This document shows positions 14,006-61,355 of a stretch of DNA of 64,000 bases, piece by piece; position 1 is the stretch's first letter; every line of letters starts with the position of its first letter. Source of the stretch: Dictyostelium discoideum. Its lineage: Eukaryota. The notes under the pieces were generated by a model. It was not told the origin of the DNA. It searched no databases and worked only from the letters and a program-made list of their open reading frames with translations. The stretch spans positions 736,001 through 800,000 of the forward strand of contig CM000150.2 of the NCBI GenBank assembly GCA_000004695.1. The letters run 5' to 3'. A program made the position numbers and the translations under genes.

Positions 14006-14032
14006 TGATTTAAGGGTTGTTCAACAAAATTT

Positions 14033-14105
14033 CGCCTAGACATGGGATCGAACCATGGACCTAGCGGTTAACAGCCGCTCGCTCTGCCTACTGAGCCATC
14101 CAGGC
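14033..14105 (-). tRNA. tRNA-Asn (anticodon GUU), 73 nt, no intron
   Basis: Reverse complement GCCTGGATGGCTCAGTAGGCAGAGCGAGCGGCTGTTAACCGCTAGGTCCATGGTTCGATCCCATGTCTAGGCG folds as a cloverleaf: 7-bp acceptor stem (one G-U), D-stem GCTC/GAGC, anticodon stem AGCGG/CCGCT with loop CTGTTAA, T-stem CATGG/CCATG with TTCGATC loop, discriminator G. Confidence 0.9.
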
Positions 14106-14149
14106 ATTTTTGATGAAAATTGTAATATTTAAATGATATTGTATGTAAA

Positions 14150-50321: not shown

Positions 50322-52000
<1,679 letters not shown>

Positions 52001-53208: not shown

Positions 53209-53976
53209 TTAACACAAAGAATTTGCTTTTAATGAAAATTTATCAAAGGTTGTGTTTGGAAGATTTAATTTTGAAAGTTCAAGTTTTACCCATTTTTTTG
53301 ATTTTTGAATTGCAAATTCATATTCAATTTTTTCATTTGGGAAAAGTTTTATTATTTTTGAAATTACTATTAAGGTAACCCAAATATTATATAATTGATC
53401 TGATGATAATTCCACAGGTGCATTACCAATTGAAATTCCCATTTGAGAAATGGTTGACTTTGTCCATGATCCATTTGCTCTTTGAATTCTTAACAAATCA
53501 ATTAAATCAAATGATGATGATGATTTTGTCTTGGATGATGTTGTTTTTGTAGTTTCTTCTTTGGTTTCACTTTTCTTTGATTTTTTAACAGACTGTCTTG
53601 AAATATCTTCATCTACATCGGAAAATCTTTTTTTTGTAATTGTTGTTGTTGTTGTTGTTGTTGGTGCTGCGGTTTTACTTTTCTTAGATTTGGTTAACAG
53701 ACATTGTGATTTATTTTTAGTTGCACTAACTTGATTTTCAAAACTAAACTGATCAATTATGTCAATGAAATCCATAGATTCTAAAGTTGGTTTAGTTGAT
53801 TCACACTTAACAATGAATGAGGTATGTTTTGAAAGTATTCCATACTTTTTACTCAATTCAACAATTCTAGTTTTATTATCTTTTTTTTTCTTTCTTTCTT
53901 TCTCTTCTAAATCTTTAATTTGATGATATGCTGATAATCTATGAATTTGATTTTGATTTGTTGTTGCTGTTGTTGT

Positions 53977-54067
<91 letters not shown>

Positions 54068-55845
54068 ATTATACAATTATTTTTTAAATCCAATTCAATT
54101 GGAATTGATAATTTATCACCTTTTGGACCATCACAAGTCATTGTAATAATTAATGGTTTTGAATTTTCAATTGAATCATTAATGATATCTTTTAATCTTG
54201 TTGATAATGACTCAATCATTAAATAAACGATCATTCTTTCTTGATAAAATAATGGTCTAATTTGTGAAGGTGATTGAATTATAATATCCTCCTTACAATT
54301 ATTATTATTTTTATTTTTATTTTTATTATTTGAAAATAATGTTGATAAATCTAATTTAATATTTGAAAACATTGGTTTTAATGAAATATTTAATAATTTC
54401 ATAACTTGTTTTTCAAAATTATCATTATCTGTAATGAATTCATAATGACCTTTACATGCATTTGATAAACCAATTATTAAATCAATATCTACACTATCAC
54501 CAATACCATAGGTGAATATACGAGTTGTATTTGACTCTTTTGAGAGGTAATGAATGATTTTATCTCTATGAGGTGCTTCACCATCAGTTAGAATGAAAAG
54601 TTGTCTTGGATATTCTGGATTTGGTGGTGATGATAAAATATTTTTAATTGGTGTTAGTAATTCAGTTCCACCTAAATTCGCTTCAATCGATTGAATGTAT
54701 TTACTAAGACATTCTAATGTTTCATCATTGTAATCTCTTGATACTTTAAATACTTTTTTAAAAGATGATCCGAAACAAACCACATTCACCCTATGTTGAT
54801 TCTCATTTAAACTTCTAATTATTATTTCCATTGCACGTTTTACTTTCCTCATTGGCTCGCCAACCATTGAACCTGAGCAATCAATTAAAAATATAAATTC
54901 ACTCTTTTGATTCATATCTTCAATTTTAATATCTTTAAAACTTGAATAATAATTTATCGAAACTGCTAATGAATTTTCAATTTTATTATATTCAATCATT
55001 GATTTTGGTTCGTCGTTAATAATACTTGGTTGAATAATTAAAACTAAAGAATCCTCAATACTATTTAATTTATCATTAGATTTTATTTTAATCTCTTTAT
55101 TATTACTATTATTATATAATACTTTAATAACATCATCATCACCATCATCACTACCACAACCAGTATTGCTACTATTAATATTTAAAATTCTTTTAGAATT
55201 ACCATACCAATTTATAATTGATTCAATTGAATTTGATAATTTTATTATAATATTTAGATTAAAATTAAAGTTATAGGTTGGGAAAAGACTATGATGAAGG
55301 TAATAGTGTAGTTGTCCATTGATGTGAGTACCAATTTCTGATGTGATAGTTAATGTAATTTTAACAGTTTCATTGGGTGGTAGATTACCGATATTAAGGT
55401 TAAAGAAATCGAGATCTTCTATTGACGATTTACTTGCTAAAAATGATTGACCACCATTTGCAATTGTGTCATTATAATTGTTTAATGCTTTTTCATGTTC
55501 TTTAATTTTACCAATTAATACTACAACTTTATCTTGAGATTCAACTCTAAAATCTGTAATAATCCATGTTGGATGCAATGGTATTTTATATCTTGCTTCA
55601 ATTGGTGTTTTTGAATCATTTGAATAAATTTGAGTCCATTTCGATGTTGAACTACAATCATTAATTTCTGTATCGATTGAAAATTTGGTTAATTTAAATA
55701 CTTTTGATTTCTTTTTATTATTTTCAGTAAGAAATAAACCTCTAGATTTCTTTTTTAAATTATTTTCTAATAGTCTATAATAGTTATAATAGTTGGCTTC
55801 TTTATATGAATGATTATTATTATTATCGTTATTATCGCTTGACAT
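53209..55845 (-). CDS. VIT (vault/inter-alpha-trypsin) domain + von Willebrand factor A domain protein, 878 aa, with (Ser)~36 and Thr-rich linkers
   Basis: N-terminal VIT-like region (IEARYKIPLHPTWIITDFRVESQDKVVVLIGKIKEHEKA). vWA MIDAS FLIDCSGSMVGEP...TDGE. Poly-S encoded by (TGA)n on the + strand at 53975-54068. Confidence 0.7.
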
Positions 55846-56298
55846 TTGTATCTAAAAACTAGTAATAAAAAAAAATATAAAATAAGTTCCCAATTTTTAT
55901 AGGAAAAAAAAAAATTAAAAAAAATCTTTTGGTTTTGAGAAAAACTCGAGTATTTATCGTATAAATTTGAGTTCCCGAGTGTTGAGGTCACACAATATTT
56001 TTTTTTTTTTGAAGTTCATAATAAATTTCATTAATCGGTAATAATTATTATTTTTTTTTTTTTATTTATTTATTTATTTATTTATTTGTTTGTTTGTTTG
56101 TTTGTTTGTTTATTTATTGTTTATTTATTTGTTTATTTATTAACAATATTTTATTTTTTAAAATTCATAGCAAGCGGGTTCAATATTCATTTTTTTTTTT
56201 TATTTTTTTTAATTTTTTTTTTTTTTTTCCATTTTTTAATTTTTTTTTTTTTTTTTAATTTTTTTTTTTTTTTAATTTTTTTTTTTTTAATTAAAAAA

Positions 56299-59200
56299 AT
56301 GATGAAAAGCGATGAAGGTGTGAGTGGGAATAGTAATAATAATAATAATTATAAATTCAAAGATAATACATTTAGAAAGTATGGAGTTGAAGTTGTAGCA
56401 TATGATAATAACAACAATAATAATAATAATAATAATAATAATGATGATAATAATACAGTAACAGTGAATTCAAGAGGATTTCATATTTCAATACATCCAT
56501 TTTCATTTAGAAATAAATTAACTATTAATCAAAATAATGGTAGTATTGGAGGATCATCATCATCATCATCAACATCAAATTCAGTATCAACACCAAAACC
56601 ACAATCATTCTATGTCGATGATGCAGGTATTGCTAAACAATTGAATCAATCTGTATTTGATATCTTATCAAGATCACGTTATTTATCTTCATTATCACAT
56701 GAGAATTTAGCTGAATTCATTGCTGCTGAACCTTCTCAAAAACATCATGGTAATTATTTATTTATTATTATATTTATTAATTGATTGAGATTCATCAAAC
56801 TGAACTGAACTGAATACACTCACCAATTAGTATACATACTAATTTTACATATTTATTATATAATACATTAATAATGTATTTAGATCAAATGTTAATTGTT
56901 TCAGAAGACTATAAGAATTCATTAGAGAAACAAATAGAGATACAAGCGAAAAGACAAACACCAATCCCATCCAATACAATCGGAAGATATGCTTATCAAA
57001 TATTGAAAGCATTATCATATTTACATAGTCAAGATTTAACTCATAGAAGTTTATCATTGGATAATATTAAATTAGATGATAATGTATGTGTTACATACAA
57101 TTTAATTTATATAATAATAACTATTATTATTTAAATATTAATTTCTTTTGTTTTATTATTATTTACTACGAAATTTCGTATTATTTTATATTTAGAATCA
57201 AATTAAATTAACAAATTATGGACTTTATTATTTATCAGATCATGGGGAGAATGTATCATTCCCAATTGGTAATTTATTATATCTTTCACCTGAATCAATA
57301 TTAAGAGGTGCAAAAGGATCATCAAATACCAAAGCAGATGTATGGGCATTAGGTTGTATTTTATTACATATTTGTTTAGGTTATTGTATTTGGCAAGATA
57401 ATAATCCATCAATTGTAACAAATAGAATATTACATTTATCTGGTTATTCAACAACTCAATCTTTTAATTCAATTTCTAAATCATTTGAACAATGTGAATT
57501 AAAAAAAACAATAATAAATGAAAAACAACATGAAGAATATGAAGAATATGATGATGATGAAGATATAAGTGAAGAAGAAAAGGAGAAAAGAATTAAAGAT
57601 ATTAAATTAAATAATAGAGATAATATGAATAATTTTATAAATTCATTAAAAAGAGAAGAAAAAGAAAATAGTGATAGTAATAGTGGTAGTAGTAATAGTA
57701 ATATAGGTATAGGATTAAATGGTTTAGGTAAAGAATTAATTGAAATAATTGAACAATGTTTAATACCAAATCCAATGGATAGACCAGATAGTGAAACATT
57801 ATTAGATCATCCTTACTTTAATGAATATAAAAATATTGATCCATATCAATTACAATGGATAATTAAACCATTTACAAAGAGTTGGGATTTACCAGATAGT
57901 TTAGAATCTTTAACTTTAAAAGAGATTGAATCCTATGGACATATTGGTAGTGATAATAATGGTGGTGGTGGTGGTGGTGGTGGTGAATCTGATAGTGATA
58001 TTTACTCTGGTAAAGAGATTTATTACTTTTGGAAATTATTAGGTGGTAATATTGAAAAGGAATTAGTTAATAAAGGATTTGCAAAAGCATCACCATCGGT
58101 TCATAAATTACCATTATATGTACCAGTTAAAGCCTCATTAACTGAATCAACTAATAGTGGTTTAAATTCACCACAACCCTATCAACATCAACATCATCAA
58201 CATCAACATCAACATCAACATCCAAATATAATTAAATCAAAAAATTCAACAGTATATAATAATGAATTTTGTTTAGTTGAATTAAGTAATGTTTTTTTAA
58301 AAATTAAAGAATCATTTAAATTATATGGTAGTAAAGTTTTTGAAGAAGGTATTGAACAATCAAATAATAATAATAATAATAGATTTAATAATATTGAAAA
58401 TAATATTGAATTACAAATTATAATCATTAGAGAATTTCATAAATTATTATATCAATATCAATATGATGATCCAACATTATCACAACCAAAGATATATAGA
58501 TTAGCAAAATTATTTGTACCACCAATTTTAAGAGGTGATATTTGGTCTTCGATTTTAGGTGTAAATGAAAGAGAAGCAAAACAATTGTATAATAGTATCA
58601 ATTTAGATGTTAAAGGTCCAAATGATAAACAGTTTGAATTGGATATACCAAGATGTCACCAATATCATCCATTATTATCATCAAGACAAGGTCATGTACA
58701 ATTATTCAAGATTTTAAAGGCATGGTCATTATTGAATTTAGAGAAGGGTTGCTATTGGCAAGGATTGGATAATGTGGCTTCACCGTTTTTAGTACACCAT
58801 TTCTTTAATGAACCAATTGCATTCGCTTCGTTGAAGGCTTTTGTTGACAAGTATCTCTCCATTCTTTATGTGCCAAATAACCATGCTGCCCTATCAGAGA
58901 TTATGTTGATCTATCAACAACTATTGGCTTATCACGATCCAGAGTTATTGAATCACTTGATGGATATTCAATTGGATCCAAACCTTTATTCAATTCCTTG
59001 GTTTATCACTGTGTTTGCTCATATCTTACCAATTGATAAATTGGAGATACTTTGGGACTCGATTTTATTATGTCCTTCAAGTTTACCAAATTTCATTGCT
59101 GCCTCTATGATCATCCAATTCCGTGATTCAATTTTAAAGATGAATTTTGAAGATGGTATAACAATGATGTCCATGATTCCATCGGTTGATGTTCATAAAT

Positions 59201-59646
59201 GTGTTTCCGACGCTTTATCAATGTTTAATAAAACACCTCTAAGTACAACTGTCACTAAATTCGTTTCAAATACTGATCAAGAGCTATGGTGGATGCAAGA
59301 AGTACCCTTTGAAAAAAGAAAATTAGAATTATTCCCACGTATTGATATTCATGATTTAATCAATGATCAACAAAAGGTAATACTAGATATTAGAACACCT
59401 TTACAATTTCAACAAATTCATTATCCTTCCTCTATAAATGTTAATCCAAAGTTATCCAAACTTCAGCAACAAATGGAACAATATAAAGGTCAACAAATTG
59501 TTGTAATTGCCCCAAAAGATCAAGGTGTAGATTTCACAAATCAATTAATTCAATGGAAATTCCCTTTTGTTTCAATGTTAAATGGTGGTATGGATTCTTT
59601 AGAACATGGTGCTCATAGTTTATTAATAATTTCAAATAAAAATTAA
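56299..59646 (+). CDS. tbck: TBCK-like protein: degenerate protein-kinase (pseudokinase) domain + TBC/Rab-GAP domain + C-terminal rhodanese domain; exons 56299-56749, 56905-57083, ~57196-59646 (~1026 aa)
   Basis: Kinase C-lobe remnants YLHSQDLTHRSLSLDNIKLDD, NYG in place of DFG, SPESILRG, DVWALGCILL. TBC region LDIPRCHQYHPLLSS...LFKILKAWS...YWQGLDNVASPF. Rhodanese-like VILDIRTPLQFQQIHYPSSINV...IVVIAPKDQG. Splice phases 1/0 verified. The third-exon start coordinate is +/-1. Confidence 0.7.
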
Positions 59647-59720
59647 TAAAATATTAATAATAATACCAAAATACATACACAATTATATTATATTTTATTT
59701 TATTTTATTTTTTATTTTTT

Positions 59721-61355
59721 TCAATATAAATTAAATTCATATTTCTTTTTAAATATTTTATTAAATATTTTATTTATTAATTCTGATTCAACTATATTTA
59801 ATTTACCAATTAATGGAAGTAAGAATTTAAAACAATTGTTATTTAATTGATAATGTTTATTTGAAATCCAAATTGATTCTAATGAATTTGGTGGTAAAGA
59901 ATTTATTGAAATTGGTGTTTCATCATTTAAAATTATAATATGTTTAATTGAAATTGGTAACCATTTTTTATGAACTGGTTGTTTAAATTCTAAACCTAAT
60001 TCTAAAAGTTCCAATTGTTGTGGTAATGTATTTGAAGTGATTGTTGAATTATAGTTACCAATTCTTAAACATTTTAAATTTGTAAAAACTTTAAAATCTT
60101 TAACTGGTTTAGTATAGGATTTATAATAAAATTCACTTAAATCTAATTTTATTAAATTTTTTAAACAAGTTTGTGAATGGTAATCTAATTTATAATCACT
60201 TTCAATGATATTCACTTTAATTGATTTAATACTTTGAAATTTATTTAAAAATAATTTTGATGATTTTTCAAATATCCAATAAAATAAGAAAATTGGTGTT
60301 GTTGCATTTAAATTTAGTGAACTGAATTGTGATGATAACAATTGTGGTTGTGGTGGTGCTTGAAATTGACCATGAAATGAGTTATAAAAAATTGTTAAAT
60401 TTGTAACTGATGGTGGTATCATGGATATTATATCTATGTTTGAGTCATTTAGTTTTAATAAGTTTGATATTTCTTGATTTGTTGATAAATTACCATTTTT
60501 ATTATAAACTTTTAATTGTAAATGTTTCATTCTCCAATCATTAAAATAAGCAAATGGTTGAGTTCTTAAATTTGTAATTTTAAGTTTTTCAAGTTTATTA
60601 GGTAGAGTTGTACCACTCTTGATTAAACACATATTATAGTCTCTTGGTAATGTTAATTTCTTTAATGATTGTGGTAATTCATTTGAACCAATTTCATGTT
60701 TAAAACTTGAATTTGAAGAAAACTTAATCTGTTCAATTGAATTAGGTAAATTTTTTATTGATTGATTGAATGAATGTCCAAAAATAATTACTTTTAAAAA
60801 TTTTGGTAAAACATTCTCATTTAATTCTTTATTAAAATAAGTTCCAAATTTTAATTTTCTTAATGATATTGGTAAAATGTTAACACCAATTTCTTGATTA
60901 AAAATTGAACTAAATTCTAATATTGTTAAATTTGAAAATATTGATAAACTGTTATTTGTTGACGATACAAGTGGTATATCTGGTTGATTATATACATTAA
61001 AAATTAAATGTGTTACAGGTGGTAAATTTTCACATAAATTGAAACTATTTCTAATATTATTTGGTTGATATAAACTTATTGATTCTATATAGTTTGGTAA
61101 ATTATTTAATTTTTCACTAATTTCTTCTTTTTTAATATCAACAAATTTTATAAATAATGATTTTATAAATTGTTTATTATCTTTTAAGAATTGTTGTTGT
61201 GAAAAGTTGACATCAACTGAAAATGAAAATAAATTAAACATTATTAAATATTTAAAAATTAAATTCTTTAAAACACAGTTTCTCCATATTTTAAAAAATA
61301 ATAAAGAATTAACATCATCATCATTATCACTAACATCAATCTCTATCTCATTCAT
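59721..61355 (-). CDS. FNIP-repeat-containing protein (544 aa)
   Basis: Repeats FNQEIGVNILPISLRKLKFGTYFNKELNENVLPKFLKVIIFGHSFNQSIKNLPNSIEQIKFS. C-terminal region paralogous to the 42921-43960 pseudogene. Confidence 0.75.
   Translation of the reverse strand: MNEIEIDVSDNDDDVNSLLFFKIWRNCVLKNLIFKYLIMFNLFSFSVDVNFSQQQFLKDNKQFIKSLFIKFVDIKKEEISEKLNNLPNYIESISLYQPNNIRNSFNLCENLPPVTHLIFNVYNQPDIPLVSSTNNSLSIFSNLTILEFSSIFNQEIGVNILPISLRKLKFGTYFNKELNENVLPKFLKVIIFGHSFNQSIKNLPNSIEQIKFSSNSSFKHEIGSNELPQSLKKLTLPRDYNMCLIKSGTTLPNKLEKLKITNLRTQPFAYFNDWRMKHLQLKVYNKNGNLSTNQEISNLLKLNDSNIDIISMIPPSVTNLTIFYNSFHGQFQAPPQPQLLSSQFSSLNLNATTPIFLFYWIFEKSSKLFLNKFQSIKSIKVNIIESDYKLDYHSQTCLKNLIKLDLSEFYYKSYTKPVKDFKVFTNLKCLRIGNYNSTITSNTLPQQLELLELGLEFKQPVHKKWLPISIKHIIILNDETPISINSLPPNSLESIWISNKHYQLNNNCFKFLLPLIGKLNIVESELINKIFNKIFKKKYEFNLY

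What the first reader, a model, noticed from the sequence alone, without database searches (positions are those of the whole stretch)
56299..59646. TBCK ortholog: pseudokinase-TBC-rhodanese architecture conserved in an amoebozoan, with DFG replaced by NYG
The domain order matches metazoan TBCK. The kinase C-lobe is recognisable (HRD-like THRSL, SPE, DVWALGCIL), but the catalytic DFG is NYG and no glycine-rich loop or VAIK lysine is evident in exon 1. This suggests the kinase domain was already catalytically dead in the common ancestor. The TBC region also lacks an obvious IxxDxxR arginine finger.
Basis: partly seen in the sequence, partly recalled or inferred. Interest (0 to 1): 0.5.

Follow-up and report, generated by a model that had tools for sequence, protein, structure and literature searches.

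The report
Dictyostelium tbck gene, already described

Summary
A three-exon gene at 56299-59646 (+) encodes a 1033-aa protein, not 1026. Pfam finds Pkinase (1e-31), RabGAP-TBC (6e-34) and Rhodanese (1e-8) in that order.

It is not new. The first 399 residues, which span both splice junctions, are identical to DDB0231329 "TBCK" in Table S2 of Goldberg et al. 2006. That table already lists it as "partial kd, inactive, HRSLSLDN, NYG".

The idea that the kinase was dead in the ancestor is supported, and also already published. None of 57 TBCK kinase domains from animals, fungi and Amoebozoa has Asp at the HRD position. NYG is the commonest state and is shared with insects.

One claim is wrong. The TBC arginine finger is present (FELDIPR, R703), and so is the glutamine finger (YWQG, Q739). 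Both are conserved in every homolog that covers the position (131 and 130 of 133 aligned sequences). Human TBCK was once misread the same way.

The rhodanese region contains no cysteine, so it is non-catalytic.

Most likely function: a dual-finger Rab GAP carrying a scaffolding pseudokinase and an inert rhodanese module. This is inferred and not tested in Dictyostelium. Interest is low.

The parts
56299..59646 (+). tbck gene, ATG to TAA (3 exons, 1033 aa)
   Evidence: Spliced CDS of 3102 nt with a single terminal stop. The first 399 aa are identical to published DDB0231329. 98% identical to D. discoideum KAM9955238.1.
55846..56298 (.). Divergent intergenic/promoter region; no upstream exon
   Evidence: 14% GC, T-rich tandem repeats, stops or poly-Phe in all three + frames, no kinase motif. 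The upstream gene 53209-55845 is on the - strand.
56299..56749 (+). Exon 1 (aa 1-150 plus the first base of codon 151): N-terminal strands, Asn/Ser low-complexity loop, helix C, strand 4
56750..56883 (+). Intron 1 (GTAATT...TTTAG, 134 nt, 18% GC)
   Evidence: The junction HH|DQMLIVSEDY is reproduced in the published protein.
56884..57083 (+). Exon 2 (aa 151-217): strand 5 to the catalytic-loop equivalent
57084..57195 (+). Intron 2 (GTATGT...TTTAG, 112 nt, 12% GC)
   Evidence: The junction LDDN|NQIKLTNYG is reproduced in the published protein and in orthologs.
57196..59646 (+). Exon 3 (aa 218-1033 plus stop)
56386..56505 (+). Predicted strands aa 30-35, 53-57 and 62-69, filling the place of kinase N-lobe strands 1-3 but without G-loop or Lys
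   Evidence: AlphaFold2 model, pLDDT 76-89 in these blocks. Foldseek alignments to CDK2 span 310-360 columns against targets of about 290 residues.
56668..57819 (+). Pseudokinase domain as matched by Pfam Pkinase (aa 124-425, profile 47-263; genomic span includes both introns)
   Evidence: E 1.1e-31.
57042..57065 (+). HRSLSLDN, the equivalent of HRDLKPEN: catalytic Asp replaced by Ser, Lys replaced by Ser, Asn kept
   Evidence: Goldberg Table S2.
57214..57222 (+). NYG, the equivalent of DFG
   Evidence: Goldberg Table S2.
57286..57294 (+). SPE, the equivalent of APE
57337..57363 (+). DVWALGCIL (kinase subdomain IX, DxWxxG)
   Evidence: The Asp is conserved in 69 of 71 homologs that cover it.
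57502..57729 (+). Acidic/Ser-Asn low-complexity insert inside the C-lobe (aa 320-395)
   Evidence: The Pfam match covers 302 residues for 217 profile positions. pLDDT is 42-69 in most 10-residue blocks of aa 321-390, with one block (361-370) at 92. The insert varies in length among dictyostelids.
58528..59133 (+). TBC (Rab-GAP) domain, aa 662-863
   Evidence: E 5.9e-34. PDB hits RabGAP1, TBC1D1 and TBC1D4. Foldseek hit TBC1D1 3qye.
58633..58653 (+). FELDIPR, the IxxDxxR arginine-finger motif (R703)
   Evidence: DIPR aligned to DINR in the TRDINRT motif of RabGAP1. R present in 131 of 131 homologs covering the column. Equivalent to human Arg511.
58753..58764 (+). YWQG, the YxQ glutamine-finger motif (Q739)
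   Evidence: Aligned to YCQG of RabGAP1. Q present in 130 of 130 homologs. Equivalent to human Gln546.
59350..59598 (+). Rhodanese-like domain, aa 936-1018
   Evidence: 35.8 bits against a cut-off of 22.2. Alpha/beta pattern at pLDDT above 90.
59497..59514 (+). IVVIAP: strand plus start of the loop where catalytic rhodaneses carry Cys; here Ala
   Evidence: No Cys anywhere in aa 910-1033. Family distribution at this column: G 42, A 17, S 12, C 2.

Best explanation
The interval is the tbck gene of Dictyostelium discoideum (kinome identifier DDB0231329), the ortholog of animal TBCK. [quoted passage not shown] The kinase-like domain lacks every residue needed for phosphotransfer. It has no G-loop and no strand-3 Lys. 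The helix-C Glu position holds Arg, the HRD Asp is Ser, and the DFG Asp is Asn. The TBC domain keeps both catalytic fingers (R703 and Q739). The rhodanese domain has no cysteine. INFERRED: the protein works as a Rab GTPase-activating protein. Its TBC domain would insert R703 and Q739 into the nucleotide pocket of a GTP-bound Rab, the dual-finger mechanism established for Gyp1-Rab33. The pseudokinase and the cysteine-less rhodanese module would serve as docking or regulatory surfaces rather than enzymes. By analogy with human TBCK (a subunit of the Rab5 effector complex FERRY, with lysosome, autophagy and mTOR phenotypes), the target is probably an endosomal or lysosomal Rab. The Rab, the partners and the cellular role in Dictyostelium are untested.
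For: Identity: the model's first 399 aa equal the published DDB0231329 sequence. Dictyostelid orthologs are collinear across both splice junctions. Domains: Pfam E-values 1e-31, 6e-34 and 1e-8. [quoted passage not shown] The family-specific linker motif YY(F/L)WKLLGG..EKEL between kinase and TBC is shared with the fungal ortholog and appears in the family consensus. Dead kinase: alignment with PKA and CDK2, and none of 57 family members has Asp at the HRD position. Recombinant human TBCK shows no ATP or GTP binding or hydrolysis. Live-looking GAP: R703 and Q739 align to the RabGAP1 fingers and are conserved in 131/131 and 130/130 homologs. Human Arg511His is disease-causing and was modelled as the arginine finger. 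Inert rhodanese: no Cys in aa 910-1033. Fold: AlphaFold2 mean pLDDT 78, pTM 0.80, with CDK2 and TBC1D1 as top Foldseek matches.
Against: GAP activity has not been shown here. None of the papers I read reports a Rab substrate for TBCK in any organism, and the purified human protein alone has no GTPase activity. Conserved fingers are therefore necessary but not sufficient. The FERRY paper reports that only Fy-1/TBCK extends beyond animals, so the human complex cannot simply be transferred to the amoeba. Some pseudokinases with degraded motifs still bind nucleotide, and the Dictyostelium protein has not been assayed.
Confidence: 0.85

Rival explanations
1. The TBC domain is a non-catalytic Rab-binding module, so the protein is an effector or scaffold rather than a GAP.
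For: None of the papers I read reports a Rab substrate for TBCK. Several TBC subclasses are known to have lost R and/or Q (PMC3655817). Human TBCK sits in a Rab5 effector complex.
Against: Both fingers are present and conserved in 131/131 and 130/130 homologs spanning animals, fungi and Amoebozoa, which is hard to explain without selection on catalysis. Human Arg511His causes disease.
Confidence: 0.1
2. The kinase-like domain keeps an unconventional catalytic or nucleotide-binding activity using other residues, for example K113 of GIAK, as WNK and CASK do.
For: Goldberg et al. aligned GIAK to VAIK. Asn171 and the APE and DxWxxG motifs are retained, and the fold is predicted to be complete.
Against: The G-loop, helix-C Glu, HRD Asp, catalytic-loop Lys and DFG Asp are all missing. 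GIAK lies in a loop with pLDDT below 50 and is absent from non-dictyostelid orthologs. Human TBCK binds no nucleotide. No family member has the HRD Asp.
Confidence: 0.04
3. The shared domain order is convergent (an independent fusion) rather than orthology with animal TBCK.
For: Identity to animal proteins is only about 30-40%.
Against: The same degraded motifs recur in both lineages (NYG, HR-not-D, FPIG after the DFG equivalent, R in helix C). The linker motif is shared, as is DIPRCHQY...YWQGLD. Named best hits are TBCK, and intermediate lineages (Mucorales, chytrids, Tubulinea) carry the same protein. The TBC-G clade with an N-terminal kinase domain was recovered by phylogeny in Opisthokonta, Amoebozoa and Excavata.
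Confidence: 0.01

Closest known systems
Dictyostelium discoideum TBCK, DDB0231329 (Goldberg et al. 2006, PLoS Genet, PMC1420674, Table S2)
   Same: The first 399 residues are identical, including both splice junctions. The paper records the same motif calls (HRSLSLDN, NYG, predicted inactive, 'multiple insults').
   Different: Nothing detectable; this is the same gene. The paper aligns GIAK to VAIK, whereas the structure model here puts GIAK in a disordered loop before helix C.
Human TBCK (Q8TEA7; FERRY subunit Fy-1; TBCK encephalopathy / proposed CLN15)
   Same: Pseudokinase-TBC-rhodanese order. No G-loop, VAIK, HRD Asp or DFG Asp. Arg and Gln fingers present (human R511/Q546, here R703/Q739). 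Rhodanese without the catalytic Cys. Shared kinase-TBC linker motif.
   Different: Vertebrates have HRA and KFG where Dictyostelium has HRS and NYG; insects share NYG. Dictyostelids carry about 55 extra N-terminal residues predicted to form two more strands, plus Asn/Ser/Gly/His-Gln low-complexity inserts. The FERRY partners Fy-2 to Fy-5 are reported only from animals.
TBC-G subclass of Gabernet-Castello et al. 2013 (PMC3655817)
   Same: A TBC clade with an N-terminal kinase domain, found in Opisthokonta, Amoebozoa and Excavata. D. discoideum was in their species panel.
   Different: The text I read does not name TBCK as TBC-G; I infer the equivalence from the domain architecture.
TBC1D23 (TBC-I)
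   Same: A TBC domain followed by a rhodanese-like domain.
   Different: It has no kinase-like domain and lacks the R and/or Q fingers, whereas this protein keeps both.

Membership tests
[quoted passage not shown] | N-terminal protein-kinase-like domain | tested here: met
   Pfam Pkinase 110.6 bits, E 1.1e-31, aa 124-425. Foldseek top hits are CDK2 and CDK5.
[quoted passage not shown] | Kinase domain lacks the G-loop, VAIK Lys, HRD Asp and DFG Asp | tested here: met
   HRSLSLDN and NYG. No GxGxxG before helix C. The Pfam match starts at profile position 47. The same holds in all 57 family members examined.
[quoted passage not shown] | Central TBC domain with Arg (IxxDxxR) and Gln (YxQ) fingers | tested here: met
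   RabGAP-TBC 118 bits. FELDIPR and YWQG align to the RabGAP1 fingers and are conserved in 131/131 and 130/130 homologs.
[quoted passage not shown] | C-terminal rhodanese-like domain without the catalytic Cys | tested here: met
   Rhodanese 35.8 bits against a cut-off of 22.2. No Cys in aa 910-1033.
[quoted passage not shown] | Closest relatives outside the lineage are TBCK proteins, with collinear similarity including the inter-domain linker | tested here: met
   Named animal hits are almost all TBCK. The linker motif Y.LW.L.GG....EL appears in the family consensus and in the Cunninghamella alignment.
[quoted passage not shown] | Rab-GAP activity, or membership of a FERRY-like Rab5 effector complex | not testable with these tools
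   This needs biochemistry or proteomics. The literature reports only Fy-1 outside animals.
Class I pseudokinase (no nucleotide or cation binding) | No ATP or Mg binding | not testable with these tools
   Shown for human TBCK by DSF. Here it is only inferred from the missing motifs.
Catalytic rhodanese / sulfurtransferase | Active-site Cys at the start of the loop after the central strand | tested here: not met
   The position is Ala (IVVIAP) and the whole domain has no Cys.

The most novel reading that the evidence does not exclude
Dictyostelid TBCKs may be the only ones that keep a complete five-stranded kinase N-lobe. Residues about 25-60 are predicted to form two extra strands. These residues are conserved across Dictyostelia but absent from the animal, fungal and tubulinean orthologs examined. 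If the extra strands are ancestral, TBCK lost its catalytic residues before it lost N-lobe strands. Dictyostelium would then offer a haploid, FERRY-independent system in which to find the original job of the TBCK pseudokinase and its Rab substrate, which bears on TBCK syndrome.
Probability: 0.25. Interest if true: 0.3.

Novelty: already known. Interest (0 to 1): 0.1.

Why it matters
As a discovery it matters little. The gene, its architecture, its HRS and NYG substitutions and its predicted inactivity have been in the literature since 2006, and the conservation of the kinase-TBC architecture in Amoebozoa since 2013. The useful outcome is a correction: the Rab-GAP fingers are intact, so the protein should be treated as a probable active GAP carrying a dead kinase. 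The family-wide tally (no HRD Asp in any of 57 TBCKs, with NYG the commonest state) supports an ancient loss of kinase activity. Because TBCK mutations cause a severe childhood encephalopathy and no Rab substrate was reported in the papers I read, Dictyostelium remains a reasonable but unexploited model.

Tried and rejected
1. The whole-protein homolog search returned only 12 hits. I re-ran the search with a trimmed TBC-rhodanese alignment.
2. That second search listed only proteins of 727 aa or fewer, so full-length human TBCK was never retrieved. Vertebrate motif states come from partial deer and fish sequences and from the literature.
3. The exact-sequence look-up of my model found nothing in the collection. 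Identity to the reference strain was established from the kinome paper's supplement instead.
4. A PDB sequence search with the rhodanese region gave only marginal hits (E 0.1-0.4) that did not reach the active-site loop. I relied on the complete absence of Cys and on the family alignment instead.
5. Upstream exon: rejected.
6. GIAK as a functional VAIK: rejected as unlikely. It lies in a low-confidence loop and is not conserved outside dictyostelids.
7. I did not use the representative-library HMM search or the second structure job, because the answer was already settled.
Full report
**What is in the sequence**

The window is AT-rich (24% GC) and the region reads like Dictyostelium DNA. On the + strand an ATG at 56299 opens a reading frame that is interrupted twice.
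- Splicing at 56749|56884 removes a 134-nt intron (GTAATT...TTTAG, 18% GC).
- Splicing at 57083|57196 removes a 112-nt intron (GTATGT...TTTAG, 12% GC).
- The spliced CDS is 3102 nt with a single terminal stop at 59644-59646, which gives 1033 aa.
- Exons are 27-28% GC, and reading through either intron hits stop codons.

**Domain check**

Pfam finds three domains in the stated order:

| Domain | Residues | Score | E-value |
|---|---|---|---|
| Pkinase | aa 124-425 | 110.6 bits | 1.1e-31 |
| RabGAP-TBC | aa 662-863 | 118 bits | 5.9e-34 |
| Rhodanese | aa 936-1018 | 35.8 bits (cut-off 22.2) | 1.2e-8 |

The kinase match covers only profile positions 47-263. The part of the profile that would hold the glycine-rich loop and the VAIK lysine is therefore not matched.

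**Identity of the gene**

The closest database proteins are 98% identical. They come from D. discoideum (KAM9955238.1) and D. cf. discoideum. Other dictyostelid orthologs are collinear across both splice junctions.

The decisive evidence is in Table S2 of the Dictyostelium kinome paper (Goldberg et al. 2006, PMC1420674). [quoted passage not shown] The 399 residues printed there are identical to my model and span both junctions. The window therefore carries the reference-strain tbck gene, and the curated gene model agrees with the one built here.

**No upstream exon**

- The 453 nt between this ATG and the divergently transcribed VIT/VWA gene (53209-55845, - strand) are 14% GC.
- They consist largely of T-rich tandem repeats.
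- They translate to poly-Phe and stops in all three frames, with no kinase motif.
- The dictyostelid orthologs that cover the N-terminus begin at the same methionine.

**The kinase-like domain**

I aligned it with PKA, CDK2 and TBCK proteins from a deer, fishes, a termite, a sawfly, Trichoplax, the fungus Cunninghamella, the tubulinean amoeba Rhizamoeba and four other dictyostelids. The whole family shows these features:
- No GxGxxG and no VAIK.
- Arg or Lys at the position CDK2's helix-C Glu (E51) aligns to.
- A catalytic loop of the form H-R/H-x-L-x-x-x-N without the Asp or the Lys.
- A DFG equivalent that is rarely D.

Across the 133-sequence family alignment the counts are as follows:

| Position | States observed |
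|---|---|
| HRD Asp (57 sequences) | N 24, L 10, S 8, A 8, H 4, C 2, F 1, D 0 |
| DFG Asp (65 sequences) | N 38, K 11, H 8, D 3, G 2, E 1, L 1, one unlisted |

NYG is therefore not an oddity of the amoeba. It is the commonest state and is shared with insects, whereas vertebrates have KFG. Rhizamoeba has DYG but HRA.

[quoted passage not shown] Recombinant human TBCK has since been shown not to bind or hydrolyse ATP or GTP, and it was classed as a class I pseudokinase.

**Structure model**

AlphaFold2 on the full protein with the 133-sequence alignment gave mean pLDDT 78 and pTM 0.80. In the N-terminal part it predicts:
- strands at aa 30-35, 53-57 and 62-69;
- a long disordered Asn/Ser loop (aa 75-112, pLDDT below 50);
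- helix C at aa 117-131;
- strands at aa 140-145 and 152-159.

That amounts to a full N-lobe-like sheet built from sequence that carries none of the nucleotide-binding motifs.

The GIAK string that Goldberg et al. aligned to VAIK lies in the low-confidence loop and is not conserved outside dictyostelids. Foldseek against the PDB returns CDK2, CDK5 and GSK3 over 310-360 columns, and TBC1D1 for the middle domain.

In the alignment, the strand at aa 62-69 (HISIHPFF) matches the N-terminal GAFTFF of animal TBCK. The first ~55 residues, which hold the two preceding strands, are found only in dictyostelids.

FELDIPR (aa 697-703) is the IxxDxxR motif with F in place of I. HMMER aligns its DIPR to the DINR of RabGAP1's TRDINRT motif, and aligns YWQG (aa 737-740) to that protein's YCQG. 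In the family alignment the Arg is present in 131 of 131 sequences covering the column and the Gln in 130 of 130.

Chong et al. (bioRxiv 10.1101/036111) identify human Arg511 and Gln546 as the two fingers. They show that Arg511His causes disease.

**The rhodanese domain**

There is no cysteine anywhere in aa 910-1033. The position after the central strand, where sulfurtransferases and Cdc25-type phosphatases carry the catalytic Cys, is Ala (IVVIAP). Across the family this column is G 42, A 17, S 12 and C 2. The domain is non-catalytic.

**How it most likely works**

Shown:
- a dead kinase fold;
- a TBC domain with both catalytic fingers under strict conservation;
- an inert rhodanese fold;
- a conserved kinase-TBC linker motif (YYFWKLLGGNIEKELV in the window, Y.LW.L.GG....EL in the family consensus).

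Inferred:
- The protein is a dual-finger Rab GAP.
- The pseudokinase and rhodanese modules act as docking or regulatory surfaces.
- It probably acts on the endolysosomal system. This rests on analogy with human TBCK, which is subunit Fy-1 of the Rab5 effector complex FERRY and is linked to lysosomal, autophagy and mTOR phenotypes.

[quoted passage not shown] The amoebal protein therefore probably works outside a FERRY complex. None of the papers I read reports a Rab substrate for TBCK, so GAP activity remains an inference.

**Comparison with what is known, and novelty**

- The gene and its motif substitutions were published in 2006.
- Its existence as a Dictyostelium homolog of the disease gene is noted in the Batten-disease literature.
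- A TBC clade with an N-terminal kinase domain in Opisthokonta, Amoebozoa and Excavata was described in 2013.
- Homologs found here in Mucorales, chytrids, Amoeba proteus and Rhizamoeba are consistent with that picture.

The finding is a correct recognition of a known gene with one wrong sub-claim. Interest is low.

Noticed in passing
window 59590-59828, compared with L001 7450-10074: The closest public assembly labelled D. discoideum (GCA_054859355.1) is only about 91% identical in DNA across the tbck locus. It carries about 2.6 kb of extra DNA, with a called RCC1/WD40_RLD-like gene, between tbck and the FNIP-repeat gene; the window lacks this. About 240 bp of the window matches both flanks of that insert.
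   Followed up: partly
window 56405-56455, 57960-57985, 58181-58222: Three coding microsatellites inside tbck: AAT/ATA repeats (poly-Asn), GGT x8.7 (poly-Gly) and CATCAA repeats (His-Gln). Most length differences between the window protein and the two 98%-identical strains fall at these sites.
   Followed up: partly
window 56048-56141 and 56190-56292: The tbck / VIT-VWA divergent promoter holds a TTTATTTGTTTA tandem array (about 7.5 copies) and a roughly 100-nt T-run interrupted by AA.
   Followed up: no
window 14032-14106 (-): The only tRNA found in the window is tRNA-Asn (GTT).
   Followed up: no
window 53209-55845 (-), 59721-61355 (-), 50322-51815 (-): Neighbouring genes: a VIT + von Willebrand A protein with a long poly-Ser tract, a FNIP-repeat protein, and a TRAF zinc-finger / MATH protein. 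All are gene types commonly expanded in Dictyostelium.
   Followed up: partly
P0095 (Rhizamoeba saxonica TBCK), kinase domain: This tubulinean TBCK has DYG at the DFG position, so the Asp is retained, but HRA at the HRD position. It is one of only three sequences in 65 with D there, so the order in which catalytic residues were lost may be resolvable with better sampling.
   Followed up: partly
window 56386-56469 (aa 30-57): The N-terminal ~55 residues of dictyostelid TBCK, predicted to form two extra N-lobe strands (aa 30-35 and 53-57), have no counterpart in the animal, fungal or Rhizamoeba orthologs aligned.
   Followed up: partly
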